Assembly (NCBI GenBank): GCA_963668175.1
Contig: OY764159.1
Coordinates: forward strand, 2,976,001 to 3,040,000
Length of the DNA stretch: 64,000 bases
DNA from: Syntrophales bacterium
GTDB lineage: Bacteria; Desulfobacterota; Syntrophia; Syntrophales; PHBD01
Direction: 5' to 3'
The notes beneath the pieces were generated by a model. It made no database searches. It saw nothing but the letters and a program-made list of their open reading frames with translations, and had not been told where the DNA came from. This document shows, one piece after another, positions 1 through 11,584 of the stretch (positions are counted from its first letter, which is position 1; each line of letters opens with the position of its first letter). A program made the position numbers and the translations under genes.

Positions 1-620
1 GACGAAAAGACCTCGATCATCGGCGCCGCCTTCGTTTCGTTCACTTCCAGCTCCACCATGCGGCTGTCGAGCTTGCCCTCGCGCAGCATCCGGCGCAGCT
101 TCTCGCGGGTCCCGTCGGCCTGGGCCGGGGTCATATCGTCGATTTCCGACGGCGTCCTGTCCCGGAGCATGTCCTCGACGTTCTTTTCGATGGGCTTCGG
201 CGGCAGGAGGACGTCCAGGAGCCTCTCTTCCGCAAGTCCCGCCGCCTTCGCGCGGACCTTGCCCTGCTCTTCCTGCTTTTCCATGTTGATCGCCAGTTCC
301 ACCAGGTCCCGGATCATGGATTCCACGTCGCGGCCGACGTAGCCAACCTCGGTGAATTTGGACGCCTCGATCTTCAGGAACGGCGAATTGTCGATCTTCG
401 CGAGCCTTCGCGCGATCTCCGTCTTGCCGACGCCCGTCGGCCCGATCATGATGATGTTCTTCGGGGCGATCTCCTCGCCGAGTTCCTTCGAAACGTTCTG
501 GCGCCGCCAGCGGTTCCTGAGCGCTATGGCCACGGCGCGCTTGGCGTCGGCCTGGCCGATAATGTACTTGTCGAGCTTCTCGACGATCTGTCTTGGTGTC
601 AACGGGTTGCCGTCATACAT
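1..620 (-). CDS. hslU: ATP-dependent protease ATPase subunit HslU (5' part; runs off the window start)
   Basis: Manual translation from ATG at 620: [40 protein letters not shown]...[23 protein letters not shown]...[15 protein letters not shown]; directly downstream of hslV. Confidence 0.96.
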
Positions 621-629
621 ATCTTTTCG

Positions 630-1220
630 TTACTCCTTGGACCGTCTCTTCGATCTCTTGCCGTTGTCTTCCTCCGGCTCGCCTTCCAGATCGAGTTCTT
701 CGACGGTGATGTTGTCGTTCGTGTAAATGCATATTTCCGAAGCGATCCGGACCGACTCGGCGGCGACTTCGGCGGCCGAAAGGTCCGAATACTTCACGAG
801 GGCCCGGGCCGCGGCGAGGGCATAGGGGCCGCCCGATCCGATGGCCATGACGTTGTCGTCGGACTCGATGACGTCGCCGGTTCCCGAAATCATCAGGAAA
901 TGCTCGCGGCTCGCGGCCACCATGATGGCCTCCAGGTGCCGCAGCATCCGGTCTGTCCTCCAGTCCTTCGTCAGTTCGACGGCGGCGCGCAGGAGATTGC
1001 CGCGATACTGCTCCAGCCGCTGGTCGAAGCGGTCGAAGAGCGTAAAGGCGTCGGCCGTGGCCCCGGCAAAACCGATGATGACTTCGTTGTTATATAGCCT
1101 GCGGACCTTCCTCGCCCCGTGCTTCATGACGGTGATGTCCACCGTGACCTGCCCGTCGCCGGCGATGACGACCTTCCCCTTATGTTTGACGGCCACGATC
1201 GTGGTGCCGCGTATCTTCAT
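630..1220 (-). CDS. hslV: ATP-dependent protease peptidase subunit HslV
   Basis: TTIVAV N-terminal Thr nucleophile, [24 protein letters not shown] motifs. Confidence 0.97.
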
Positions 1221-2179
1221 GTCTTCGTTTCCTCCTTGGTTTGTCCGGCCTGCGCATCCGTCTTGTGTTGTCCGTCCCCTTCCCCGCCGGCCTTGGGGTG
1301 GGCCTTGTCGTAGACCTCCATGAGCCTGCTCACGCTCACCTGTGTGTATTTCTGCGTCGTCGAGAGGCTTTCGTGGCCCAGCATCTCCTGGATGGAGCGG
1401 AGGTCCGCCCCGGCGTCCATCAGGTGCGTCGCGAAGGAATGGCGGAGCTTGTGGGGGCTGATCTTGCGGCCGATGCCGCTTGCCTCCACCCTTTTCTCCA
1501 CGATCCTGGCGATGCTCCGGGGATTGAGCCTCTGTCCTTCCCGCCCCGTGAAGAGCGGTCCCGCCTCGCGGCCTTCCGCATCTCCCCGCACCGCGAGATA
1601 CCGTCCCACGGCCGAAAGCGCCGGAGCGCCCACGGGAACAAGCCTCTCCTTCTTGCCCTTCCCCTTGACCTTCACGAGGGCCTGGGCCTCGTCCAGATCG
1701 GGCACGTCGAGGTTCGCCAGTTCCGAAAGCCTGATGCCCGACGAATAAAACAACTCCACGATCGCCCTGTCCCGCAGGGCCGTTTCGTCGTCGCCCCCGG
1801 CCTCCGCGTTCAGGACGTTCATCATCTCGTCCACGGACAGGAACACCGGCACGTGCTTTTCCGCCTTCGGGGCCAGTACCGCCTCGGCGGGATTGGACGC
1901 CACCCTTCCCTCTCTTACGAGGTAGTCGAAGAAGGACCGGATCGCCGAGAGCTTCCGGGCCATCGTCACCTTCTTCAGCTTCTGCCGGTAGAGCGAGGCC
2001 ATGTAGGCCCGCACCGTCAGGTGGTCGATCCCCTCTGGTTTCGGCTCCGCTCCGGGCCTGTTCTCGGCGAGAAAGTCCGTGAACTGTCTCAGGTCGGCCA
2101 GGTAATTTTTCCGTGTGTGCCCGGAAAGATTCCTTTCGACGGCCATGTATTTTTCGAACGCCGCTATCGACTCTTTCAT
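1217..2179 (-). CDS. xerC: Tyrosine recombinase XerC
   Basis: [43 protein letters not shown]; conserved xerC-hslV-hslU order. Confidence 0.92.
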
Positions 2180-2449: not shown

Positions 2450-2950
2450 CTACATCTTATATTTGCCGAAGTCGTCCGGGGAGAGGTTCTCCAGGAATTC
2501 CTTCAGCTTGTCGTCTTTTAACTGATCCAGATCGGTTACCTTCGTCCCGAAATCGATGTTCCGCGATTTCTCGATGACCTTCTCGTCGACGTAGATGGGG
2601 GCTTGCGCCCGCAGGGCCAGGGCGATGGCGTCGCTCGGTCGCGCGTCGATGATGAAACTCTCGCCGTCCTTGAGGAGATAGAGGTTGGCGAAGAACGTAT
2701 TGTTCCGCAAATCGCAGATCTCGATCTTCAGAAGCTCTATCCCCAGGATCTTCAGGAGATCGTTCATGAGATCGTGGGTCATGGGTCTCGAAAAGGAGAT
2801 TTTCTCCATTTCGGTGGCAATGGCGCTCGCTTCGAAAAGGCCGATCCAGATGGGAATGGCCTTTTTGTCCGTCATGTCCTTCAGGATCACAATCGGCGTG
2901 TTCGTGATCGGATCGATGGTCAGACCGGATATCTTCATTTCTATCAGCAT
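2450..2950 (-). CDS. Bifunctional nuclease family protein (DUF151)
   Basis: IPIWIGLFEA, RPMTHDL, IDARPSDAIALALR motifs; GAGGAG RBS before ATG at 2950. Confidence 0.92.
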   Translation of the reverse strand: MLIEMKISGLTIDPITNTPIVILKDMTDKKAIPIWIGLFEASAIATEMEKISFSRPMTHDLMNDLLKILGIELLKIEICDLRNNTFFANLYLLKDGESFIIDARPSDAIALALRAQAPIYVDEKVIEKSRNIDFGTKVTDLDQLKDDKLKEFLENLSPDDFGKYKM

Positions 2951-2963
2951 TGAGCTCCTCCTG

Positions 2964-4334
2964 TCATTGAGCTTCCGCGCGTCGTGCAATGAATCCCGGC
3001 GATGCCGCGCCTGTAAGTTCCCCACGCAGCGAATGCAGATAAGCTTTTTTGATGAACACAGGAACCGTTTCCCCGATTGCCGTTTCTCGTTGCCTGAAAT
3101 TGACGATCTTGTTCCCGCACGTCCTTCCCGTCAGATCGTCTTTACCCGTCTTGCTCGGCCCTTCGACCAGGACGTCCAGCACCTTGCCCTCCAGTTCCCT
3201 GTTCCTCTCCTGGGTGTGCTCTTCCTGCAGGGCTTGCAGCACCGAGAGCCTCTCGCTCCTGATGCCGCGGGGCACCTTGTCGCCGAACCCGGCCGCAGCC
3301 GTTCCCTCCCTTTCTGAATACTTAAAAGAAAAGAGGTTGTCAAACCTGATTTTATTCATAAGGGCGATTGTCGCCCGGAAATCTTCGTCCGTCTCCCCCG
3401 GGAACCCGACGATGACGTCGGAGGTCACGCTGATGTCGGGGCGGACGGCCCTGAGGCGCCCGACCTTGTCCAGGTAGTCGGCCGCCGTGTAGCCCCGGTT
3501 CATCCGGGCCAGGATGCGGTCGGACCCCGACTGGACCGGCAGGTGGATATGGTTGCAGAGCGTCTCGATCTCGCCGAAGCACCGGATCAGGTCGTCGGAG
3601 AGGTCCTTCGGATGTGACGTCGTGAACCTGATTCGCTTGATCCCGTCTATCTTTCCCATATCCCGAAGCAAATCGGGAAAGCGGTAACCGCTCCCGTTCG
3701 TCCCGAGGCCGTAGGAATTGACGTTCTGGCCGAGGAGGGTCACCTCCCGGACGCCGTTTTCGGCCATCATCCCGACCTCGTCCAGGATGTCCCTGTGGGG
3801 CCGGCTTTCCTCCCTCCCCCGTACATAGGGCACGATGCAGTACGAGCAGAAATTATTGCAGCCCTGCATGATCGTGACGAAGGCCGAGATTTTTCCCGGA
3901 GCCGGAACCGCCTTTAAGGCCAGCGATGGCACGGATTTGCGGAAAGCCGTCTCCGTAACCTGCACCCGTCGGAGGCTTGCCGTGCGCACCATCTCCGGAA
4001 GCTTGTGGATGTTATGGGTCCCGAAGACAATGTCCAGGACCTGGCTGCGCCTGAAGAACTTCGCCCCCCACTGCTGGGCAAGGCAGCCGCCTACCGCGAT
4101 CACGAGCGACGGCTTCTCCTCTTTGAGCGCCGCGAAGCGCCCGAGCTGGCTGTAGACCTTTTCCGCCGCCTTTTCGCGGATGCTGCACGTGTTGATGACG
4201 ATAAGATCGGCCTGGCGCGGGTCTTCCGTGGGGCCGTAGCCCGCGTCCAGCATCATGGCCGCGATCTGGTCCGAATCGTGGACGTTCATCTGGCAGCCGA
4301 ACGTCTGGATATAAATTTTCTTCTTCTCTTCCAT
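2964..4334 (-). CDS. miaB: tRNA-2-methylthio-N6-dimethylallyladenosine synthase MiaB
   Basis: TFGCQMNVHDS, NTCSIREKA, CNNFCSYC radical-SAM motif, C-terminal TRAM domain. Confidence 0.95.
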   Translation of the reverse strand: MEEKKKIYIQTFGCQMNVHDSDQIAAMMLDAGYGPTEDPRQADLIVINTCSIREKAAEKVYSQLGRFAALKEEKPSLVIAVGGCLAQQWGAKFFRRSQVLDIVFGTHNIHKLPEMVRTASLRRVQVTETAFRKSVPSLALKAVPAPGKISAFVTIMQGCNNFCSYCIVPYVRGREESRPHRDILDEVGMMAENGVREVTLLGQNVNSYGLGTNGSGYRFPDLLRDMGKIDGIKRIRFTTSHPKDLSDDLIRCFGEIETLCNHIHLPVQSGSDRILARMNRGYTAADYLDKVGRLRAVRPDISVTSDVIVGFPGETDEDFRATIALMNKIRFDNLFSFKYSEREGTAAAGFGDKVPRGIRSERLSVLQALQEEHTQERNRELEGKVLDVLVEGPSKTGKDDLTGRTCGNKIVNFRQRETAIGETVPVFIKKAYLHSLRGELTGAASPGFIARRAEAQ

Positions 4335-4543
4335 GACCAACCGGAAACGTGGTTCTCCGCCGGACGCCGCAGGCATCAGGCAGCATCAAAACGCCTTATT
4401 ATATGGTCTGTCCATAGTCAACTACTTTTTACGCGTCATCCGACGGCCATACGACCGATTACATAGTCGTTTTTCCGGGGGAAAACGGGATCGGGTTATC
4501 CGGGCGCCGCTCATGCGCCCGCCGGACGGGAGAATGGTCCGGA

Positions 4544-4888
4544 TTACGCGTGTTTGACGGATTCGTCGTCGCCGGCGTAGCCGACGCCCCACTGGTACAG
4601 GGTATCCAGGATGGGCAGGAGCGTGCGGCCCGATCCGGTCAGGGAGTATTCGACCTTCGGCGGCACCTGGGTGTACACGAATCTCCTGACCAGCCCGTCC
4701 CGCTCCAGTTCACGCAGCTGCTGCGTCAGCATCTTCTGGGTGATGCCGGGCATCGTCCGCCTCAGGTCGCTGAACCTCAGGGTGTTTTCCCCCAGGTGCC
4801 ACAGGATGAGCGATTTCCACTTCCCGCCGATCAGATCGAGCGTCAATTCCATATGGCAGTGGTATTCGATATCCCTAAACCTGATCAA
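4544..4888 (-). CDS. HxlR-family winged-helix transcriptional regulator
   Basis: [22 protein letters not shown]...RFSDL...[14 protein letters not shown]...[10 protein letters not shown]; divergent from the flavoprotein gene. Confidence 0.93.
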
Positions 4889-4935
4889 GGCGATCCCCTC
4901 CCCGGCTCCTTATTCCATCCGCGGCAGGCGGACAC

Positions 4936-4976
4936 GGTATACAAACAGGTACTACGATACGAAATAGTGCGTACTT
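4936..4976. promoter_or_regulatory. Putative HxlR operator region in the divergent promoter
   Basis: GTATAC...GTACTAC...AGTGCGTACTT repeats resembling HxlR-family boxes, between the regulator and its probable target. Confidence 0.45.
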
Positions 4977-5091
4977 GCATGTTACGTTATTACCGTTTAT
5001 TCTTATAACACAGGCGGCATTATCCGGAAACGGAAAGTCGCATCCTGCGGCGTATATTTTAAATTAAAGACATGATTGGAGGAGGACGCTC

Positions 5092-5670
5092 ATGAAAGTC
5101 GTGGCATTCAACGGAAGTCCCAGGGCCAAGGGCAATACCGCCCAGAGCCTGAAAATCGTCCTGGCGGAAATCGAGCTCGCCGGCATCAAGACGGAATTCG
5201 TCCAGTTGGGGGGGCGCAAGGTCTTCGGGTGCCTGGCGTGCATGAAGTGCTGGGAGAACCAGGACGGCCGCTGCGCTCGGACGGACGACAAGATGAATTC
5301 GTACATCGAGAAGATGCAGGAGGCCGACGGCATCCTTATCGGCTCCCCCACCTATTTCAGCAACGTGACGTCGGAGGTGAAGGCCCTCATCGACCGCTGC
5401 GGCTACGTGTCGATGGCGAACGGCGGCGTCATGCTCCGGGGCAAGGTCGGCGCGGGCGTCGTCGCCGTGGGGCGCGCCGGGGCCACCTTCACCTATTCGG
5501 CCATCAACTTCTTCTTCGGGATTGCGGAGATGATCATACCCAGCAGCAACTACTGGAACATGACCCTGGCCATGGAGCCGGGCGACGTCCACAAGGACGA
5601 ATTCGGCGTCCAGACCTTCCAGCTTCTGGGCCGGAACTTCGCCAAAGTCCTCAAGCAGGTCAGAAAGTAA
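5092..5670 (+). CDS. Iron-sulfur flavoprotein / NADPH-dependent FMN reductase (flavodoxin-like)
   Basis: NGSPRAKGNT, CLACMKC-x7-C Fe-S motif, GSPTYF, KALIDR; GGAGGA RBS. Confidence 0.92.
   Translation: MKVVAFNGSPRAKGNTAQSLKIVLAEIELAGIKTEFVQLGGRKVFGCLACMKCWENQDGRCARTDDKMNSYIEKMQEADGILIGSPTYFSNVTSEVKALIDRCGYVSMANGGVMLRGKVGAGVVAVGRAGATFTYSAINFFFGIAEMIIPSSNYWNMTLAMEPGDVHKDEFGVQTFQLLGRNFAKVLKQVRK
5518..5670 (+). repeat. Copy 1 of the flavoprotein 3'-end repeat (functional gene end)
   Basis: 153 bp gggattgcggagatgatc...caggtcagaaagtaa, recurring at 6671-6823 and partially at 7665-7754. Confidence 0.95.
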
Positions 5671-5678
5671 CCCAGGGG

Positions 5679-5719
5679 GGCCTCCGTGGATGCGCAACGT
5701 TCGCCGAGGCCGTCTTATT
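5679..5719 (+). terminator. Hairpin after repeat copy 1
   Basis: ggcctc-cgtggatg-cgcaa-cgttcgcc-gaggcc followed by gtcttatt. Confidence 0.4.
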
Positions 5720-5808
5720 GAAAGCATAATGGATCGAAGACTTGCTTCTGAAACGAACGAATAATAGGCGTCGTGTTCCTTATTTATGGGCACTTACAAG
5801 AATGTGTA

Positions 5809-6024
5809 TTATTCTTTCATAACATTGAAGAATTCCCTGACCGCGTCGAGCAATGCGCCGATACAGAAAACACCGGCAATAACGGCGCCGACGATAACAA
5901 AGGGATGGTAAGGAAGATCGTTGTTCAGGCAGAAAACAATGACAACGAATATGGCCAGGAAACAAAAGACGATTCCTGCTGCGGAATCAAGAAGAATGTA
6001 GATTTTCATCCCCATTCTGAGCAT
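5809..6024 (-). CDS. Small hypothetical two-TM membrane protein (cargo 1)
   Basis: Two hydrophobic stretches; AGGTGG RBS-like upstream; AT-rich. Confidence 0.45.
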   Translation of the reverse strand: MLRMGMKIYILLDSAAGIVFCFLAIFVVIVFCLNNDLPYHPFVIVGAVIAGVFCIGALLDAVREFFNVMKE

Positions 6025-6118
6025 AAAAACCCACCTGTTACGATTGTATCGCTTCTACTTCATACATATTTATAACCGTCCTCTCAATTTGTTGCAACAT
6101 GAAAATGATGGTTTAATT

Positions 6119-6466
6119 TTATCGATCCCATTCCGGTGTGCCCATCTTCATAATTTCATCGCGATACCGTTGTATGCTGATTGAGTATCCTTGATAATAT
6201 TCCTGACTATAAATAGTGACGGTGTCGTTCGGCATGACATGAATAATACCGGACGAATATTTATCACGAAATACATCATTACCCATTGCCTCAAATCTCC
6301 TGCTTTGATTCATATAATTGAGAAGAAGTTCCCTGTCTTCGCCAGAATTGAGCGGCTTACCGCCGATATCTTCTTGGTCTAAGGTTAAGACATAAGGACT
6401 GATGCCAAGCACGCTCATGCCTACGCGTCTACCATATTTAAACATCGGATACATTATGTAGGACAT
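6119..6466 (-). CDS. Hypothetical protein (cargo 1)
   Basis: AAGGAG RBS before ATG at 6466 (MSYIMYPMFK...); AT-rich; family not recognised. Confidence 0.6.
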   Translation of the reverse strand: MSYIMYPMFKYGRRVGMSVLGISPYVLTLDQEDIGGKPLNSGEDRELLLNYMNQSRRFEAMGNDVFRDKYSSGIIHVMPNDTVTIYSQEYYQGYSISIQRYRDEIMKMGTPEWDR

Positions 6467-6609
6467 TCGAATGTTCTCCTTTTCTGTTAATTCTAAGCGA
6501 CATTCCGAAGGATATGCCCTCATAAGCTTCCATCTAATCCAAAACATTCATGCATTTGAAGTTGCACGAGCTCATGAGTGCCATGCGAATCCTTTATTAT
6601 CTTGCGCGC

Positions 6610-6638
6610 ATTATTCCATATATGCAATATATAGTCAA
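6610..6638 (-). promoter_or_regulatory. sigma70-like promoter for cargo 1
   Basis: TTGACT-17 nt-AATAAT on the - strand; spacer holds the ATATAT-n3-ATATAT palindrome. Confidence 0.55.
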
Positions 6639-6670
6639 GCTATATTTCTACTATTGAAATCTTCGCTCTT

Positions 6671-6823
6671 GGGATTGCGGAGATGATCGTGCCGGCGAGC
6701 AACTACTGGAACATGACCCTGGCCATGGAGCCGGGCGACGTCCACAAGGACGAATTCGGCGTGCAGACCTTCCAGCTTCTGGGCCAGAACTTCGCGAAAG
6801 TCCTCAAGCAGGTCAGGAAATAA
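6671..6823 (+). pseudogene. Copy 2 of the flavoprotein 3' end (orphan fragment, 50 codons plus stop)
   Basis: Collinear with 5518-5670; GIAEMIVPASNYWNMTLAMEPGDVHKDEFGVQTFQLLGQNFAKVLKQVRK*; changes synonymous or conservative. Confidence 0.93.
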
Positions 6824-6884
6824 TGCGGCGTATATCTGCTTCGGCGCAAGGCCGGCGGGGACGGAATGTTTTCGGGCGGGGATG

Positions 6885-6930
6885 CTCCTCCGATGCGAGT
6901 TTCAAGCCTTGCATCGGAGGAGGTCTTTCT
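6885..6930 (+). terminator. Strong hairpin after repeat copy 2
   Basis: ctcctccgatgcgag-loop-cttgcatcggaggag (15-bp stem, one G-T) followed by gtctttct. Confidence 0.6.
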
Positions 6931-7060
6931 AACGGCGGTACATCACACGATATGTTGCATGATCGCGGCGTATCCGGACCGTTGCGTCGGTTCTTCGGTC
7001 TGGCGAAGCATCCTGAACGGATAACCGGGCCTGTTTTCCAGGGATGGCAGGTTATTTAAA

Positions 7061-7181
7061 CAGCACCGTACAAAACCACGTGAAAGCGAGATGTGCGGGA
7101 AATCAACTGTCGCAGGATGTCGTGTAAGTTTCGGTTCAGATCGAGAGGCAATGGAGGGCAACTTCCGGAAGTACGGTGCTG
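7061..7181. ncRNA. Candidate structured RNA / inverted-repeat element
   Basis: 11-bp inverted repeat cagcaccgtac...gtacggtgctg enclosing hairpins tttcggt-tcag-atcgaga and ggagg-gcaa-cttcc. Confidence 0.3.
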
Positions 7182-7202
7182 CTCCCAGCAAACCTGTCTG
7201 TT

Positions 7203-7334
7203 TCAGCCTGGGCAGCTTGTCTTCAGGTAATAAAGGCAAAGCTGCGTAACGCGCTCATTCGGCCCGTGCATGACGGGCGCCAATGTGAATTCCTCCTCCT
7301 TCTTCTTCGCGGGAACTTCCTTTTTTTCTTTCAT
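7203..7334 (-). CDS. Small 43-aa protein (cargo 2); possible selenoprotein extending to 7056 if TGA is read as Sec
   Basis: AGGAAGGA RBS; MKEKKEVPAKKKEEEFTLAPVMHGPNERVTQLCLYYLKTSCPG-TGA; below the ORF-track length cutoff. Confidence 0.45.
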   Translation of the reverse strand: MKEKKEVPAKKKEEEFTLAPVMHGPNERVTQLCLYYLKTSCPG

Positions 7335-7664
7335 GTCGATTCCTTCCTACAACGTTCCCTTCCTTCGCGGGAGAGCATAAGAAATTTTGTCGCGCAGACA
7401 ATTGGACGATGTCTGAAAGATACATAGGATTATGACCCGGATTTAGGTAGGATTATGGGGAAGGATTACTGTACGCCGCGAGACGGTCAGGAGTTGTTCC
7501 GGATGCTGCCGAAGATACTTGGATTTTCAAAAATCCTTCCGGCCGTTCGTATTGATCATGATTCCCGGACGGAATATTATTTATTGAAGACTGACTCGCT
7601 GGATGGCTGGATAAAGGGATAGCGCGCCTTCTGACCAGAGGACAACGGGCCGTGGAATTAATCC

Positions 7665-7754
7665 GGCGACGTCCACAAGGACGAATTCGGCGTCCAGACC
7701 TTCCAGCTTCTGGGCCGGAACTTCGCGAAAGGCCTCAGGCGGTTCAGGAAGTAA
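7665..7754 (+). pseudogene. Copy 3 of the flavoprotein 3' end (shorter, more decayed)
   Basis: 90 bp collinear with 5581-5670; GDVHKDEFGVQTFQLLGRNFAKGLRRFRK*. Confidence 0.9.
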
Positions 7755-7838
7755 TAAGGCAGGTTCTTTTAGATAGCGCGAGGCTGTGGAGGACGATCTT
7801 TTTTAGGCCGATTCTGACCACCAAACATAAACGAATGA

Positions 7839-9182
7839 TTATAGTGTTAGATAGCCCTGCTCCAAGGCATTGATTTTTGTAGCTTTAGAAGCATATACAA
7901 AAGACAGTGAGTGTTCTAATTGATGATCCTTTTCTTTCCCTCTTGCATCTTCTGCATACGACTGGACAGCATTTTCAGCTCTACTGAGCAATTCGTCGAA
8001 TGTTATTACTTCTGGATTATGGAGGTTTCTTCTGAAAGATTCAAATATCTTCATCTTATCTCTATTTGATTTTAAATCATTCGTATTTCCGATAACGAGA
8101 ATTCCTTTGGGATGATGAGTGTAAATATCTTGATCTTCAAGCAAATCTCTGTTTTCGTCTGTCCTGGAACCTTCAATTGCCCATCTCCAGCATTGTTGTT
8201 GAAGCTGTGCAACACCACCGACTAAGTCTTCCCCGAATTCATATGTTCTATTCCTATATTTTTTATCTGATACAAGATTAGAATTTGGCCGCTTGATTTC
8301 GACCAGTACAGTGAATTTTATTTGAGCAGAAGTTGCTAGTAAGAAATCGCCCTCTAGGGAACCGGTGCCCGTTAAGTCTTTGCCTCCGAATGAGGGCCTA
8401 CATTCTAATATGTGTAAAAACTGATAACTCAAGCCGTATCCGAAAATCCATTTATTTTTCTCAAAAAACTTCTGCCAGTCAGTTTCCAGCCAATCGCTTT
8501 TCTGTAAATGTGTTCGGAAGTCTTCAACTTGGGCATTTCTAATGGACCATAGGCGTTTGTGAGCCAGCACATCGGGTAATTCTGCTCCGACTTGCCCTAA
8601 AACATCCCAGAAATGTTTACCGAATACTTCTGGTAATATAGCAGCAAATTCATTTTCTCGCCCGGCAACCAGCACTTTCGGATCGATTTTAGATTCATTT
8701 AAAAGACTTATTAAAATATCAATTCTTTGCGGATCAGCGTTTTTCCATGCCCGCAGAAGTTCCAGATTGATATGCTTGCTAAACAAAGTTTTAATATCCG
8801 ATTCGGACAGCATTGACCAATCAATATTAGCAGCTGAAATTACGTCCGATCCCTTTATTAACATGGCAAAGTAAGTTGTTGCCGCATCACCGGATGCGTT
8901 TTCCAGATAATTGTCAATATTAACAACTGTAACACAATATCCTTGACCCTGCACTTTGCCTTGTTTGGCATATTTATTTCTCGTTAATAGCAATGCAGGT
9001 TTCTTGTCTGACGGACAAGAACTTGTGACCAGATTTGCTAAACATTTGCCATTGCGAAACTGAGCCTTTCCATGATGAAAAACCTCTTCCCAATCGAAAT
9101 CGTAAAATATATGAATCCCACACATATTCTCTGAGGCGCCATACTTAAATGATAACGGTGATTCCCAAGGGATTGGCGACAT
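7839..9182 (-). CDS. sduA: Shedu anti-phage nuclease SduA-like (DUF4263 C-terminal domain)
   Basis: WQKFFEKNKWIFG, DFLL, LVEIKRP, GVAQLQQQ, GILVIG, VITFDELL motifs of the DUF4263 PD-(D/E)XK domain; strongly AT-rich relative to flanks. Confidence 0.85.
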   Translation of the reverse strand: MSPIPWESPLSFKYGASENMCGIHIFYDFDWEEVFHHGKAQFRNGKCLANLVTSSCPSDKKPALLLTRNKYAKQGKVQGQGYCVTVVNIDNYLENASGDAATTYFAMLIKGSDVISAANIDWSMLSESDIKTLFSKHINLELLRAWKNADPQRIDILISLLNESKIDPKVLVAGRENEFAAILPEVFGKHFWDVLGQVGAELPDVLAHKRLWSIRNAQVEDFRTHLQKSDWLETDWQKFFEKNKWIFGYGLSYQFLHILECRPSFGGKDLTGTGSLEGDFLLATSAQIKFTVLVEIKRPNSNLVSDKKYRNRTYEFGEDLVGGVAQLQQQCWRWAIEGSRTDENRDLLEDQDIYTHHPKGILVIGNTNDLKSNRDKMKIFESFRRNLHNPEVITFDELLSRAENAVQSYAEDARGKEKDHQLEHSLSFVYASKATKINALEQGYLTL

Positions 9183-9351
9183 ATCATCTCCTTAATCATT
9201 GTTCTGTCGTTAACCAGCACGTTATTTTTGATTAATTTAAATACGTTCTTGGAAAAACTTTTGTAAGAGTACGTCTCTTTTCACACCCCGCCGGGAAGAC
9301 TCCGCCGTCTCTAGAAAATCTCAGCCTCGAACATTTTTAAGCATTTTTTAT

Positions 9352-9396
9352 AAAAAAAGCGGAGAATATGACTTTATACAAATCACCAACTCCGCT
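9352..9396 (-). terminator. Intrinsic terminator-like hairpin upstream of Shedu
   Basis: - strand agcggag-ttggtgatttgtataaagtcatatt-ctccgct followed by a T run. Confidence 0.45.
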
Positions 9397-9599
9397 CAGA
9401 TATTCACGTATTTTATAGGCGTAAATCAACTAGAAAAAAGAATATATTCTAAAAAGAAAATGTCAAGCAAGATTTTATATATACTGACATAATTCCACGG
9501 GCATCATCCCATGACAGGGGAACGCGGTCCTCAATAATGGATATACCGATAAGCTAATTTATAATCCGCAGTTTCCCTCCCCCCGCCCCCTGCCAGCTC

Positions 9600-10742
9600 T
9601 CAAACCTTCTCCACCTTGATCCCCGCCGGGATGCCGCTTTCGCAGGGGACGTTGACCTGGCAGCGGCCGCAGTAGATCGTGTAGTTCGTATTGTCCGGGT
9701 AATTGGCCTTGACGTAGGGCGTGACGACGGTGGTCACATATTTGAAGCAGGCGTTCTTGTTGCGGCCCGGCACACCCTCCTTGTAGCTCTGGATCGCCTG
9801 GGACGGGCAGTGGTTCGCGCAGATGCCGCACTGCTGCCCGCCCGACGCGAAATAGAGGCAGTAGTCGCGGTGGGAGACATAGGGCCGCGGCGTCACGGGG
9901 AGCCTCGCCTTGACGATGGCGGAGGCGCAGCGGTGGGCCTTGCCCACCGGCGTGATCAGGCCGTCGGAGAGGCCGAAGGTCCCCAGGCCCGCGCAGTAGG
10001 CGTAATGCCGCTCCGACCACGTGGACGCGAAGCCGTAGGCGCTCTGCGGGACGATCCGGAAGTGCGTCGTGATGGAGGCGGAAGCGGCATAGTAGCCCTT
10101 CGCGGAAAGCATCTCGAGGACGCCCCGTCGGGAGCGGTCGGCGGACATCTCCCCGAAGACGCGGCCCTTGCCCCAGCGGCGGCTGGGATACTTGTCTGGG
10201 AGCGCGCGCTGCTCCGCCTTCACCTTCTCCTGGAACGGCAGGATCCAACTGATCACCGTCAGGTCCGCGTCGGTGCAGGGGATGCCGGGATGGACCTTTT
10301 TGAAGAGTTCCAGCGGCGTCATGTGGAAGGGCGCGACGTTGATCTTGAGGGCGAGCACGGCGGGATCGTCGCCCCGGACGAAACCGACGATGGGCATGTC
10401 GTAGGCATGCTCGAACGGCTCCGGCGGGACATTGTTGGGGATGAGCTTGTAGTAATCGTCGCCCGCCTGCGGCGTATCCATGCCGAGGGAGTTCTGTTTG
10501 CTTTTGACGAAGTCCCTGAGGTTCCCGGCAACCTCCTTCGCCAGGGCGGCGTCGCCTTCGCCCGCCGCCGCGGCCTGGGCCTCCGCAACGGGGAACCGGG
10601 GAATGGCGGCCATCAGCCCCGCGCCCGCCGCCAGGGTGAAGAGTTTCCGGCGGGTTATTTCGACCGGTCGAAAGGGTTTGTCTTCATACGTATCCGCGGG
10701 CATCTCCGGATGCTCCGTATATTTCTCTCTTGCATCTTTCAT
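9600..10742 (-). CDS. Tat-signal 4Fe-4S protein of the epoxyqueuosine reductase / reductive dehalogenase-like superfamily
   Basis: ITRRKLF Tat motif plus AxA; WSERHYAYCAGLGTFGLSDGLITPVG; CGICANHCP and C...CGRCQVNVPC Fe-S motifs. Confidence 0.75.
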   Translation of the reverse strand: MKDAREKYTEHPEMPADTYEDKPFRPVEITRRKLFTLAAGAGLMAAIPRFPVAEAQAAAAGEGDAALAKEVAGNLRDFVKSKQNSLGMDTPQAGDDYYKLIPNNVPPEPFEHAYDMPIVGFVRGDDPAVLALKINVAPFHMTPLELFKKVHPGIPCTDADLTVISWILPFQEKVKAEQRALPDKYPSRRWGKGRVFGEMSADRSRRGVLEMLSAKGYYAASASITTHFRIVPQSAYGFASTWSERHYAYCAGLGTFGLSDGLITPVGKAHRCASAIVKARLPVTPRPYVSHRDYCLYFASGGQQCGICANHCPSQAIQSYKEGVPGRNKNACFKYVTTVVTPYVKANYPDNTNYTIYCGRCQVNVPCESGIPAGIKVEKV

Positions 10743-10929
10743 CGTCATTCTCCCCGGCGGCCTGCCGCCTGTTTCCATTGTATTCAACGCATGCGCGGAT
10801 TCACACGACCCTTCCGCGCCCGGTATCGATATATGCTATTTTAAACGCAAAGCGGCAAAATGTCATTGGGTAAAAACAGGTAGGTATTGTAGATGGAAGC
10901 GGACGGAAAAAACCGCCGGCCGATACCCG

Positions 10930-10958
10930 TTGACATACCGGACGGACGCCCGTATATA
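10930..10958 (+). promoter_or_regulatory. sigma70-like promoter
   Basis: TTGACA-17 nt-TATATA upstream of 11021. Confidence 0.5.
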
Positions 10959-11020
10959 GAGTGACAAACCGGCGGGAAAGACCGATCATCTGAAGAGTTT
11001 CTTCGTCAAGGAGGGATGGT

Positions 11021-11584
11021 ATGCGGCTGCGGATTCTCTTTCTTCTCGTCCTTCTTCTCGTCCTTCTTCTCGTCCTTCTTCTTATCCTTGCATCCGCGGC
11101 CTCGCCAGTTTACAGCATGGACAACTGCTTTCCCGGCAAGAATCGCGTCCTGTCGTCGCCGGCAGGACATGAATGGACGTGGTCGGAAAGAAAGAGCGAC
11201 CGCGACTCGCACCGCCTTCTCTATCGTGCCGCCGCCTCGGAGCCTTTCCGGGAACTGCTGGCCTTCGACCGGGAGGTCTGCATCCTCCCGTCGCCCGACA
11301 ACAAATCCTTTGCAGTCACGGACCACATCGGAAGCAATATCTCCGAAACGCTGATCTATCGTCACGACGACATTGCCCATCCGGTCCATGTCATGGATAT
11401 TTTACCTGAGAGGCTCCGCCGCATACTCTTCAAAGGTGTATCGCATTGCTATGTCAAGGCCGTTTCCTGGGATAACGGGGGGCTGACAGTCCGCGTGCAC
11501 GGCGACCGCGATCCCGATCCCCCGCGCTTCGATGTTACACTGAGATGCATGGAAAAGGACGGGACGTGGCGCTGCGAGCCGTGA
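11021..11584 (+). CDS. Hypothetical secreted protein
   Basis: AGGAGG RBS; hydrophobic N-terminus; beta-rich body; family not recognised. Confidence 0.65.
   Translation: MRLRILFLLVLLLVLLLVLLLILASAASPVYSMDNCFPGKNRVLSSPAGHEWTWSERKSDRDSHRLLYRAAASEPFRELLAFDREVCILPSPDNKSFAVTDHIGSNISETLIYRHDDIAHPVHVMDILPERLRRILFKGVSHCYVKAVSWDNGGLTVRVHGDRDPDPPRFDVTLRCMEKDGTWRCEP
11042..11089 (+). repeat. 12-bp in-frame tandem repeat (cttctcgtcctt x3 plus one degenerate copy)
   Basis: Seen directly; encodes LLVL repeats in the signal peptide. Confidence 0.9.

What the first reader, a model, noticed from the sequence alone, without database searches (positions are those of the whole stretch)
5518..9470. Cassette-accretion hotspot: flavoprotein gene 3' end repeated three times, each copy followed by a different cargo
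Seen: the last 153 bp of the iron-sulfur flavoprotein gene (5518-5670) recur at 6671-6823, and the last 90 bp recur at 7665-7754. Copy 2 differs mostly at synonymous or conservative positions (IIPSS vs IVPAS, GTC vs GTG, AGA AAG TAA vs AGG AAA TAA), so it looks like a functional allele's end rather than a randomly decayed duplicate. Copy 3 is shorter and has non-synonymous changes. After each copy comes a cargo on the opposite strand: two orphan ORFs with their own promoter, a small-peptide/RNA unit, and a Shedu nuclease. Established: integrative elements restore the target gene with a carried 3' end and leave the displaced end downstream, and tandem arrays of this kind form at tRNA sites. Inference: this is serial capture of 1-2 kb cassettes at a metabolic protein-coding gene with no integrase or transposase in the array, i.e. 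an integron-like accessory/defence array using the gene end as its recombination anchor, with the oldest cargo furthest away.
Basis: partly seen in the sequence, partly recalled or inferred. Interest (0 to 1): 0.8.

Follow-up and report, generated by a model that had tools for sequence, protein, structure and literature searches.

The report
Integrase-less cassette array at gene end
Three small foreign DNA segments, one carrying a Shedu anti-phage nuclease, are stacked behind a flavoprotein gene, each preceded by a copy of that gene's tail; this is a real and strain-variable example of a known but poorly understood way of adding genes without a recombinase gene in the insert.

Summary
The last 153 bp of an FMN-reductase gene (5518-5670) recur at 6671-6823 (142/153 identical), and its last 90 bp recur at 7665-7754 (84/90). 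The genome has no other copy. The copies lie in a low-GC island (5671-9599) with two orphan genes, an 841-bp segment without a clear gene, and a Shedu gene.

Copy 2 is the tail of a working allele: all three of its amino-acid differences occur in a full-length variant from a related metagenome. Related contigs carry their own orphan tails, and a relative about 95% identical has cargos 1 and 2 but other DNA in place of copy 3 plus Shedu.

No recombinase gene, attC-like hairpin or shared junction motif was found. At least seven other gene ends in this genome show the same layout with unrelated repeats.

My reading (0.4): cassettes that carry a substitute gene tail and are inserted and reshuffled by homologous recombination, as in "insertion with long target duplication". 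The close rival (0.33) is decayed site-specific islets (e14/icd, CIME type). An integron-like system is not supported.

This scan has noted similar integrase-less insertions on other DNA (13 findings in at least 13 genomes).

The parts
4544..4888 (-). hxlR-family regulator, divergent partner of the flavoprotein gene (left flank)
   Evidence: PF01638 E 3.3e-36. hxlR lies next to the FMN_red homologue in 8 of 80 metagenome loci.
5092..5670 (+). NADPH-dependent FMN reductase / flavodoxin-like gene (192 aa), the target gene
   Evidence: PF03358 E 8.3e-30. GC 0.611.
5518..5670 (+). copy 1: the working 3' end of the gene (last 51 codons including the stop)
5671..6670 (.). cargo 1 (1000 bp, GC 0.415)
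   Evidence: It has no other copy in the genome.
5809..6024 (-). 71-aa ORF with two hydrophobic helices
   Evidence: ORF. The exact protein is on record, with a 99% identical homologue on a 1313-nt metagenome contig. No Pfam family reaches its cut-off.
6119..6466 (-). 115-aa orphan ORF
   Evidence: The 115-aa form is on record and the 142-aa form is not. Only 3 proteins among 5.8 billion match. No Pfam, PADLOC or NCBIfam family. The structure model is poor (pLDDT 55).
6610..6638 (-). promoter-like site for cargo 1 (TTGACT, 17 nt, AATAAT, with TG)
   Evidence: Consensus scan, 10 of 12 matches. This is a pattern match only.
6671..6823 (+). copy 2: orphan 3' end (142/153 identical to copy 1), open 46-aa frame
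   Evidence: Its I>V, S>A and R>Q states all occur in full-length allele P0001.
6824..7664 (.). cargo 2 (841 bp, GC 0.52), no convincing gene. It has a strong hairpin at 6885-6922 and a 43-aa ORF at 7203-7334 (-) with a good ribosome site.
   Evidence: No family hit for 6 ORFs. None of 7 tested ORFs is on record. Hairpin. The plus-strand RNA 6840-7205 folds with z -2.7. The segment is conserved in runs X6 and X7 up to about 7527.
7665..7754 (+). copy 3: orphan last 30 codons (84/90 identical), 4 non-synonymous changes
7755..9599 (.). cargo 3 (1845 bp, GC 0.393)
   Evidence: No depth in run X7 between 7510 and 9513.
7839..9182 (-). Shedu (SduA) nuclease gene, 447 aa
   Evidence: PF14082 E 1.6e-33. 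PADLOC SduA E 1.9e-58. It is alone in its 90% cluster. The nearest relative among species-representative genomes is 36% identical, in the C-terminal domain only.
9439..9466 (-). promoter-like site for the Shedu gene
   Evidence: Consensus scan, 10 of 12 matches. This is a pattern match only.
9600..10742 (-). Fe-S protein with a reductive-dehalogenase-like C-terminus (380 aa), the right flank
   Evidence: PF13484 and TIGR02486 hits, both below their cut-offs. The 380-aa form is on record, with a homologue at 90% or more on the 33,929-nt contig.

Best explanation
This is a tandem array of three small, recombinase-less cassettes behind the FMN-reductase gene.

Each cassette travels with a 'tag': a substitute copy of the gene's last 30-51 codons that ends at the stop codon. 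When a cassette goes in, the gene stays whole and a copy of the tail is left downstream as an orphan.

I think insertion, loss and reshuffling run on the host's general homologous recombination (RecA) acting on the 90-158-bp tags. The incoming DNA would be either a linear tag-cargo-tag fragment or a circle of one tag plus one cargo. This would make it an iterated case of 'insertion with long target duplication' (ILTD), in which the repeat is brought in by the incoming DNA and not made on the spot.

Shown: the copies; their allelic nature; the variation among relatives; the lack of recombinase genes and of repeat structure; the recurrence at other gene ends.

Inferred: the RecA mechanism, the form of the incoming DNA, and how the first tag-cargo junction arose.
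For: 1. The copies come from working alleles. The c1/c2 differences fall at codon positions [2,2,7]. All 3 amino-acid states of copy 2 occur in full-length allele P0001, and the window's own states occur in P0123.

2. Homology stops exactly at the stop codon. This fits a tag kept only as far as it restores the gene. It does not fit a random staggered-cut duplication.

3. The array varies in nature.
- The 90% cluster holds 3 other full-length variants and 5 other orphan tails of 44-45 aa on contigs of 33,929, 1313, 1090 and 2892 nt.
- The 1313-nt contig pairs an orphan tail with the 71-aa ORF.
- Run X7 is about 95.5% identical (62 differences in about 1394 nt). It covers 5172-7509 and 9514-11183 at about 110x and has zero depth at 7510-9513.

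4. No recombinase.
- The six-frame PF00589 scan finds 6 hits in the genome: the xerC called, a second hit of similar score that I take to be xerD (not checked against a family model), and 4 beside tRNA or tmRNA genes.
- PF00239 finds 2 hits, both far away.
- No IntI reaches its cut-off.

5. The repeats do not fold better than shuffles (z -1.0 to +0.4). The three cassettes share no sequence next to the tags. No terminal inverted repeats were found at 10 repeat pairs.

6. The layout is general in this genome.
- Orphan copies of 87-234 nt of the 3' ends of an MBL-fold, an MFS, a CMD, a LysR, an MscS and a 743-aa gene, and of the 5' end of a 205-aa gene, each sit beyond a 0.7-4.5-kb insert without a recombinase.
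- The 743-aa gene has 3 copies with the same boundaries.
- The repeats are unrelated to each other, so one site-specific enzyme cannot serve them all.

7. Precedent. ILTD of restriction-modification genes has 46-423-bp repeats, no mobility genes, repeats that often span a start or stop codon, and occurs mostly in competent species (PMC2853133, passages read).

8. ComEC and DprA genes are present. This is permissive only.
Against: - No empty site and no junction-level read evidence was obtained, so neither insertion nor excision was seen directly.
- The difference from the X6/X7 lineage starts at about 7527. That is 137 nt left of copy 3, not inside a copy. The difference in the 115-aa ORF lies in its first 25 residues. 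Events other than tag-by-tag exchange therefore also shape the locus.
- The two orphan copies start at different points (gene positions 5513 and 5581).
- An exact stop-codon boundary and a tail of about 150 bp with mainly synonymous differences are also the classic mark of integrase-mediated insertion, as with e14 in icd.
- Integrase-less remnants (CIMEs) are reported to be very common.
- Codon-position bias summed over the other loci ([21,8,40]) does not by itself exclude duplication on the spot followed by decay.
- RecA crossovers over 90-158 bp at 92-93% identity would be rare events.
Confidence: 0.4

Rival explanations
1. Decayed or satellite site-specific islets (e14/icd type, CIME or microCIME type). 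Elements with a tyrosine or serine integrase once integrated into a core site inside the gene's 3' part, each carrying a replacement tail. Later elements accreted in tandem. The recombination modules were then deleted, or always acted in trans, leaving only cargo between att-like repeats.
For: - Homology ends at the stop codon.
- There is an 18-nt identical block at the left edge of c1/c2, followed by a polymorphic patch.
- The most diverged copy is the farthest from the gene. This matches the rule reported for CIMEs (PMC7563491 passages).
- The e14/icd/icdC precedent (PMC13626634 passages).
- The three copies at the 743-aa gene share both boundaries.
Against: - None of the array plus 7 other such loci has a recognisable recombinase or remnant. 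The six-frame scans read through stop codons.
- All 4 non-Xer tyrosine recombinases sit at tRNA or tmRNA sites.
- Eight unrelated repeats would need about eight lost specificities.
- The inserts are compact, with intact genes and no element debris.
- The three cassettes share no arm-like sequence.
- In 6 of 9 repeat pairs the first mismatch lies within 9 nt of the stop-distal edge.
- Among 80 metagenome loci of this gene family, none has a second tail and 1 has a XerC-like gene nearby.
Confidence: 0.33
2. An ordinary replacement hotspot between two core genes. Different alleles of the intergenic region are swapped by double crossover in the flanks. The tail copies are flank remnants carried in by unequal or illegitimate joins, with no cassette mobility of their own.
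For: - Differences from relatives begin inside cargos (about 7527; left of 9619; the N-terminus of the 115-aa ORF) and not at copies.
- Run X7 is also poorly covered over hxlR and the gene's 5' part (4504-5171), which suggests a mosaic of alleles.
- In the closest metagenome homologue, L111, homology stops at window position 5467.
Against: - Random joins would not give at least two junctions exactly at the stop codon.
- They would not give the recurrence of the layout at 7 or more other gene ends.
- They would not give tails of similar length, 44-46 codons, in several contigs.
Confidence: 0.12
3. A dedicated, integron-like capture platform in which a specific enzyme recognises the flavoprotein tail.
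For: - The array has a repeated unit.
- One cargo is a defence gene.
- The array varies among relatives.
Against: - No IntI reaches its cut-off.
- The repeats show no hairpin signal.
- The cassettes are not promoterless and are not co-oriented with the gene.
- The same layout occurs at unrelated repeats elsewhere in the genome.
- Only 1 short C-terminal cluster lies outside this lineage's own cluster in 5.8 billion proteins.
Confidence: 0.05
4. An assembly artefact: strain variants were collapsed into a false tandem array.
For: Repeats of about 150 bp can mislead short-read assemblers.
Against: - The copies differ by about 7% and sit between unique sequence in a closed single-contig genome.
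- Runs X1-X4 hold 96-98% of the sampled words.
- Low-depth pieces in run X5 match cargo 1 and Shedu with 0 differences.
- Independent metagenome contigs carry several tails on what appears to be one contig.
- I did not lay reads across the junctions of the source runs.
Confidence: 0.02

Closest known systems
Insertion with long target duplication (ILTD) of restriction-modification genes (Nobusato et al. 2000, known to me only as cited; Furuta, Abe and Kobayashi 2010, PMC2853133, passages read)
   Same: - Defence genes inserted with long direct repeats (46-423 bp).
- No mobility genes in the insert.
- Repeats often span a stop or start codon, so the target gene stays whole.
- The mechanism is unknown.
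- The repeats allow amplification.
   Different: - The cargo here is Shedu and orphan genes. Elsewhere in the genome it is HigBA-like, Fic and other genes, not restriction-modification.
- Three copies are stacked.
- The copies are 92-93% alike and allele-like, so the repeat seems to come with the incoming DNA and not from a fresh duplication.
- No empty-site genome was available, and an empty site is part of how ILTD is defined.
Cryptic prophage e14 (and phage 21, recalled) in the E. coli icd gene, with the icdC pseudogene (PMC13626634, passages read; it cites Hill et al. 1989)
   Same: - The element sits in the 3' part of a metabolic gene and supplies a replacement tail.
- The displaced C-terminal fragment remains as an orphan.
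- The two tails differ mostly by synonymous or conservative changes.
   Different: - e14 is 15 kb and carries its own site-specific recombination system.
- Here the inserts are 0.8-1.8 kb with no recombinase, and there are three in a row.
CIMEs and microCIMEs with accretion arrays, for example at the 3' end of fda or tRNA-Lys in streptococci (PMC7563491, passages read; Bellanger et al. 2011 only as cited there)
   Same: - Elements flanked by att repeats at a gene's 3' end that lack all recombination genes.
- Tandem arrays.
- The most decayed units lie farthest from the target gene.
   Different: - CIMEs are defined as deletion derivatives of ICEs or IMEs.
- They are mobilised in cis by a related element's integrase.
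- No such parent element, debris or integrase was found here.
Additive flexible genomic islands of Alteromonas (PMC4898812, passages read)
   Same: Hotspots where cassettes vary in number and kind among close strains, marked by a repeat of part of the target gene downstream of each cassette.
   Different: - Most of those (6 of 8) sit at tRNA or tmRNA genes.
- They are described as site-directed recombination hotspots.
- Here the target is a protein-coding gene with tails of 90-158 bp.
Integrons
   Same: An ordered array of small cassettes separated by a repeated element; defence cargo is possible.
   Different: - No IntI, attI or attC-like folded sites.
- The cassettes have their own promoters and the opposite orientation.

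Membership tests
Integron | IntI-type tyrosine recombinase next to the array | tested here: not met
   TIGR02249 best hit in the genome is 82.6 bits against a cut-off of 265. The window's xerC scores 122.6 on that model and 345.5 on XerC.
Integron | attC sites: imperfect palindromes that fold as single strands between cassettes | tested here: not met
   Single-stranded DNA folds of the three repeats with 55 nt of flank, both strands, give z -1.01 to +0.43. No attC covariance model was available to me.
Integron | Promoterless cassettes co-oriented behind a common promoter | tested here: not met
   The cargo genes lie on the opposite strand, with promoter-like sites at 6638-6610 and 9466-9439.
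Site-specific integrative element in a gene's 3' end (e14/icd type) | Direct repeat made of the gene's tail; the gene is restored; the displaced tail is left as an orphan | tested here: met
Site-specific integrative element in a gene's 3' end (e14/icd type) | Integrase or excisionase encoded in the element | tested here: not met
   No PF00589 or PF00239 hit lies in 5671-9599. The genome-wide six-frame scans list 6 and 2 hits, all elsewhere.
CIME / microCIME | att-flanked element lacking all recombination and transfer genes | tested here: met
CIME / microCIME | Derived by deletion from an ICE or IME; a cognate integrase-bearing relative uses the same site | tested here: inconclusive
   No debris was found in the cargos. 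There is no integrase at this gene end in the genome. One of 80 metagenome loci of the family has a XerC-like gene nearby. The close relatives' contigs could not be fetched.
Insertion with long target duplication (ILTD) | Insert under 20 kb flanked by direct repeats over 30 bp, with no mobility genes | tested here: met
   The criteria are as stated in PMC2853133.
Insertion with long target duplication (ILTD) | A related genome with an empty site holding one copy of the repeat | tested here: inconclusive
   No empty site was found. Relatives carry arrays of their own. The sister genus has only a 50% paralogue in another context.
Shedu (SduA) defence system | SduA C-terminal nuclease domain (DUF4263 / PF14082) over its full length | tested here: met
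   PF14082 positions 4-159 of 159, E 1.6e-33. PADLOC SduA E 1.9e-58. Defence activity was not tested.
Rhs/CDI-type orphan C-terminal arrays | Orphan fragments encode alternative, divergent C-terminal domains, each with an immunity gene | tested here: not met
   The orphan tails are nearly identical in protein sequence to the working tail. The defining feature is recalled, not taken from a call.

The most novel reading that the evidence does not exclude
Small accessory and defence cassettes in this lineage are 'address-tagged'. Each carries a 90-230-bp copy of the end of a conserved host gene and spreads with no recombinase of its own. It enters as tag-cargo-tag DNA or as a tag-plus-cargo circle and is integrated by host RecA. 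This keeps the target gene intact and builds integron-like arrays at many different genes: at least two three-copy arrays and six single insertions in this one genome.
Probability: 0.3. Interest if true: 0.7.

Novelty: new variant of a known kind. Interest (0 to 1): 0.45.

Why it matters
Defence and accessory genes are known to cluster at hotspots, but how very small islets without any recombinase get there is poorly understood.

This locus offers a clean, strain-variable array in which the repeated gene tails can be shown to be ends of working alleles. The same genome repeats the pattern at unrelated genes. Both facts point to a general, homology-based route of gene gain that has been reported for restriction-modification genes (ILTD) but was not mechanistically resolved in the 2010 paper I read.

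If that is right, it would explain part of the 'integrase-less island' problem, and it could be tested with simple transformation and recA experiments.

If the rival is right, this is a further example of decayed integrative elements. Its main interest would then be the Shedu variant and the two orphan genes.

Tried and rejected
- Exact-pattern scans for the repeat core found nothing in genome contigs, metagenome contigs or viral contigs.
- Island DNA 5671-9599 has no match among plasmids or phages at blastn sensitivity.
- Rfam found nothing in 4000-11500 at E up to 1. There is no tRNA in the window.
- The 80 metagenome loci of the gene family come mostly from organisms of about 40% GC in the eight I profiled, and are at best 76% identical over the full length. 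None has a second tail, so they say nothing about this lineage's hotspot.
- The sister genus has a 50% paralogue about 5 kb from miaB with no repeats. It is not orthologous.
- A search for Shedu relatives among species-representative genomes gave only 32-36% matches to the C-terminal domain, so no donor was identified.
- A search for short C-terminal fragments gave 1 cluster outside the gene's own cluster.
- No RNA holder was listed.
- Run X10 (same species label) laid only on a low-complexity stretch at 11036-11080. Run X5 is the same strain at low depth and is not independent.
- The X7 joint 6821>5794 ('goes back 1028', depth 195, 1 contig, 35 nt on the shorter side) could be a different cassette order, a duplication or a collapsed repeat. 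I could not resolve it.
- The 115-aa ORF gave nothing useful. The Atlas gave no named relative. The AlphaFold model has pLDDT 55, so I ran no fold search.
- I first thought homology continued about 55 nt past the stop codon, from the alignment. I rejected this.
- A test for a dif-like inner core, using a motif I recalled from memory, found 2 matches in the window, neither near the array. This is a weak test.
- There are no terminal inverted repeats or shared junction motifs at 10 repeat pairs.
- There is no consistent identical block at the stop-distal edge of the repeats.
- A 30-nt similarity between the Shedu 3' end and the Fe-S gene 5' end (family D2) was treated as chance.

Full report
**1. 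The observation**

The window lies in a closed 4.57-Mb genome. A repeat search and a BLAST of 5000-9600 against the whole genome give three direct copies of the 3' end of the gene at 5092-5670 and no other copy.
- 5513-5670 matches 6667-6823: 92.4% over 158 nt, E 3e-59.
- 5581-5670 matches 7665-7754: 93.3% over 90 nt, E 2e-31.
- 6734-6824 matches 7665-7755: 92.3%.
- Ungapped counts are 142/153, 84/90 and 83/90.

The gene is an NADPH-dependent FMN reductase / flavodoxin-like protein (PF03358, E 8e-30). It is paired divergently with an hxlR regulator.

The stretch 5671-9599 is a low-GC island. GC is 0.415, 0.52 and 0.393 for the three inter-copy segments, against 0.60-0.65 for the flanking genes. 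The copies themselves keep host-like GC of 0.58-0.60.

**2. What lies between the copies**

Cargo 1 has two minus-strand ORFs.
- One is a 71-aa protein with two hydrophobic helices.
- The other is an orphan whose recorded form is 115 aa (6119-6466). The 142-aa form is not on record.
- The 115-aa protein has only two relatives among 5.8 billion proteins and no family hit.
- The Atlas gave no named relative, and its structure model is poor (pLDDT 55).

Cargo 2 (6824-7664) has no convincing gene.
- Six ORFs have no family hit, and none of seven ORFs is on record.
- It contains a 15-pair hairpin at 6885-6922.
- Its plus strand folds somewhat better than shuffles (z -2.7).
- It has a 43-aa ORF with a good ribosome site. 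That last point is my reading.

Cargo 3 carries a Shedu gene (PF14082 over the whole domain, E 1.6e-33; PADLOC SduA E 1.9e-58). A promoter-like site lies upstream of it.

Only this one cargo is a recognised defence gene.

**3. The copies are ends of working alleles**

- Copy 2 differs from the gene end at 11 bases, 7 of them at third codon positions. There are 5 synonymous and 3 conservative codon changes.
- The 90% protein cluster of the flavoprotein holds full-length variants from related metagenome contigs.
- One of them, P0001, has all three of copy 2's amino-acid states (I>V, S>A, R>Q). Another, P0123, has the window's own states.
- Copy 2 is therefore the tail of an allele that is in use elsewhere in the population, not a decaying duplicate.
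- Copy 3 is shorter and has 4 non-synonymous against 2 synonymous codon changes, so it looks older or unconstrained.

Homology ends at the stop codon in all three copies. The next 55 nt are 9/55 to 23/55 identical, and local alignments of the flanks score like shuffles. My first impression that homology continued past the stop was wrong.

**4. Relatives**

No close relative could be fetched as DNA.
- Pattern scans of the three collections found nothing.
- The species-representative genomes hold no other member of this genus.

Three indirect sources nevertheless show variation.

(a) Protein cluster members.
- Besides the window's own 46-aa orphan ORF there are five other orphan tails of 44-45 aa.
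- Two of them are listed on a 33,929-nt contig.
- The clusters of Shedu and of the 71-aa ORF hold no member from that contig.

(b) A 1313-nt contig holds an orphan tail together with a 99% identical 71-aa ORF. There, that cargo lies next to a fragment and not next to the whole gene.

(c) Public runs.
- Run X7 is a biofilm metagenome holding a relative about 95.5% identical (62 differences over about 1394 nt), at about 110x.
- It covers 2500-4500, 5172-7509 and 9514-11183. It has no depth at 7510-9513.
- One X7 contig carries 239 nt unlike the window to the left of 9619.
- One X6 contig carries 149 nt unlike the window to the right of 7527.
- X6 and X7 share the listed variants at 7371-7447.
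- This lineage therefore has cargo 1, copy 2 and cargo 2, but other DNA in place of copy 3 plus Shedu.
- The break lies 137 nt left of copy 3, not inside a copy.
- Likewise, the 82% homologue of the 115-aa ORF differs almost only in its first 25 residues.

Not all the changes run through the repeats.

Three results count against my use of these data.
- Run X5 is the same strain at low depth and adds nothing independent.
- Run X10 gave nothing.
- I did not lay the source runs across the junctions.

**5. No recombinase and no special site**

- Six-frame scans that read through stop codons find 6 tyrosine-recombinase matches in the genome.
  - The hit in the window at 1217-2179 is xerC. A second hit of similar score I take to be xerD, without a family check.
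  - The other four lie inside or beside islands at tRNA-Arg, tmRNA and tRNA-Ala/Leu.
- There are 2 serine-recombinase matches, both far away.
- No integron integrase reaches its cut-off.
- The repeats do not fold better than shuffles on either strand (z -1.01 to +0.43).
- The sequences next to the copies are unrelated among the three cassettes.
- There are no terminal inverted repeats.
- The island has no match among plasmids or phages.

**6. The same layout elsewhere in the genome**

A self-BLAST, read with third-codon-position GC to pick real frames, shows orphan copies of gene ends beyond recombinase-less inserts of 0.7-4.5 kb at seven further loci.

| Target gene end | Repeat | Cargo |
|---|---|---|
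| MBL-fold gene, 3' end | 87 nt | 216-aa ORF |
| MFS transporter, 3' end | 123 nt | TPR protein |
| CMD-family gene, 3' end | 89 nt | Gp49/HTH toxin-antitoxin-like pair |
| LysR regulator, 3' end | 184 nt | aldo-keto reductase |
| MscS channel, 3' end | 169 nt | histidine kinase |
| 743-aa gene, 3' end | about 100 nt, three copies with the same boundaries | one slot Fic plus a 75-aa ORF; the other a TRAP transporter operon |
| 205-aa gene, 5' end | 234 nt | WD40-caspase protein |

Sources for the table are.

- The repeats are unrelated to one another.
- Identities are 90-96% for the seven gene/orphan pairs in the table. The farther orphan at the 743-aa gene is 86%.
- From the coordinates, homology ends 26, 3 or 1 nt before, or 7, 10 or 54 nt after, the end of the coding sequence. 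This clusters near the stop codon more than a random duplication that merely spares the gene would.
- Mismatches summed over these loci fall at codon positions [21, 8, 40].

The flavoprotein tail is therefore not a special anchor. Gene ends in general are used.

**7. Mechanism**

Two things are well supported at the level of architecture.
- Each unit is a gene-tail copy plus a cargo.
- The tail is kept only up to the stop codon, and it comes from a working allele.

That fits a tail that travels with the cargo and restores the gene on insertion, leaving a copy of the tail downstream as an orphan. What catalyses the insertion is not shown.

I favour host homologous recombination on the tails (confidence 0.40). 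A linear tail-cargo-tail fragment can pair its outer parts with a single target and loop the rest in. Alternatively, a circle of one tail plus one cargo can integrate by a single crossover. Either route keeps the repeat boundaries and builds arrays. Neither needs an element-encoded enzyme, and either works at any conserved gene end. This matches:
- the lack of recombinases at the array and at all seven other loci, while the four non-Xer integrases all sit at tRNA or tmRNA sites;
- the unrelated repeats;
- the compact, debris-free inserts;
- the published 'insertion with long target duplication' of restriction-modification genes, which is seen mostly in competent species and has no known mechanism (PMC2853133, passages read).

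ComEC and DprA genes are present. That is permissive only.

The close rival (0.33) is site-specific origin with loss of the integrase.
- e14 in icd leaves just such an orphan tail (PMC13626634, passages).
- Integrase-less CIMEs are common, stack in arrays, and place the most decayed unit farthest from the gene (PMC7563491, passages).
- The exact stop-codon boundary fits this rival equally well.

A plain replacement hotspot with flank remnants (0.12), a dedicated integron-like system (0.05) and an assembly artefact (0.02) are less likely.

**8. Comparison and novelty**

The architecture is covered by known kinds:
- ILTD;
- e14-type tail substitution;
- CIME accretion;
- additive flexible islands (PMC4898812, passages).

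What is new here:
- a three-unit array at a protein-coding gene with minimal cassettes, including a Shedu variant whose nearest relative among species-representative genomes is 36% identical;
- direct evidence that an orphan tail is another allele's working end;
- recurrence at seven or more unrelated gene ends in one genome.

Earlier notes of this scan list similar recombinase-less insertions flanked by duplicated gene or tRNA ends: 13 findings in at least 13 genomes. I treat them as leads only.

I rate this a new variant of a known kind, interest 0.45. The boldest reading that remains open is a recombinase-free, address-tagged cassette system. I give it 0.3.

Noticed in passing
own genome G000:C1:2099593-2108043 (locus L118): A second three-copy array. 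The last roughly 100 nt of a 743-aa gene recur twice downstream (96% and 86%) with the same boundaries. One slot holds a Fic-domain gene plus a 75-aa ORF, the other a DctPQM transporter operon plus a PNPOx gene. A low-GC 394-aa ORF lies beyond the last copy.
   Followed up: partly
own genome G000:C1, loci L114, L115, L116, L119, L120, L121: Single insertions without a recombinase, each flanked by an 87-234-nt copy of a neighbouring gene's end (MBL-fold, MFS, CMD, LysR, MscS 3' ends; the 5' end of a 205-aa gene). The cargos include a Gp49/HTH toxin-antitoxin-like pair and a WD40-caspase protein of 1126 aa.
   Followed up: partly
own genome G000:C1:2079575-2091382 (locus L123): A 967-aa gene is followed by about eight units of 1.1-1.5 kb, each with a conserved stretch of about 360 nt and a low-GC small ORF. 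It looks like an array of orphan toxin tips with immunity genes. It was not annotated further.
   Followed up: no
own genome G000:C1:1538211-1541444 (locus L124): Three paralogous genes of about 200 aa in tandem with conserved 3' ends, in a lower-GC stretch.
   Followed up: no
locus L111:3623-4551: The closest metagenome homologue of the hxlR-flavoprotein pair (84% and 83% amino-acid identity) loses homology at window position 5467. Its flavoprotein ORF is only 142 aa, followed by high-GC genes. This is a truncated or replaced 3' part in another lineage.
   Followed up: partly
window 6840-7205 (+): The plus-strand RNA of cargo 2 folds better than shuffles (z -2.7) and includes a 15-pair hairpin at 6885-6922 followed by a T-rich tail. 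It may be a terminator or a small RNA. There is no Rfam match.
   Followed up: partly
window 3-2179 (-): A housekeeping xerC-hslV-hslU cluster lies 3.3 kb upstream of the array. No dif-like core was found near the array.
   Followed up: partly
window 11006-11389: A low-complexity coding repeat (KKDE-type) attracts reads from an unrelated run (X10) at 11036-11080. The X7 relative skips 36 nt here (11047>11084), so this is a length-variable repeat.
   Followed up: no
window 4504-5171: In the relative of about 95% identity (run X7), depth over hxlR and the 5' part of the flavoprotein gene falls to 13-23, against about 110 on either side. This stretch is much more diverged or replaced there, so the locus is a mosaic.
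   Followed up: no
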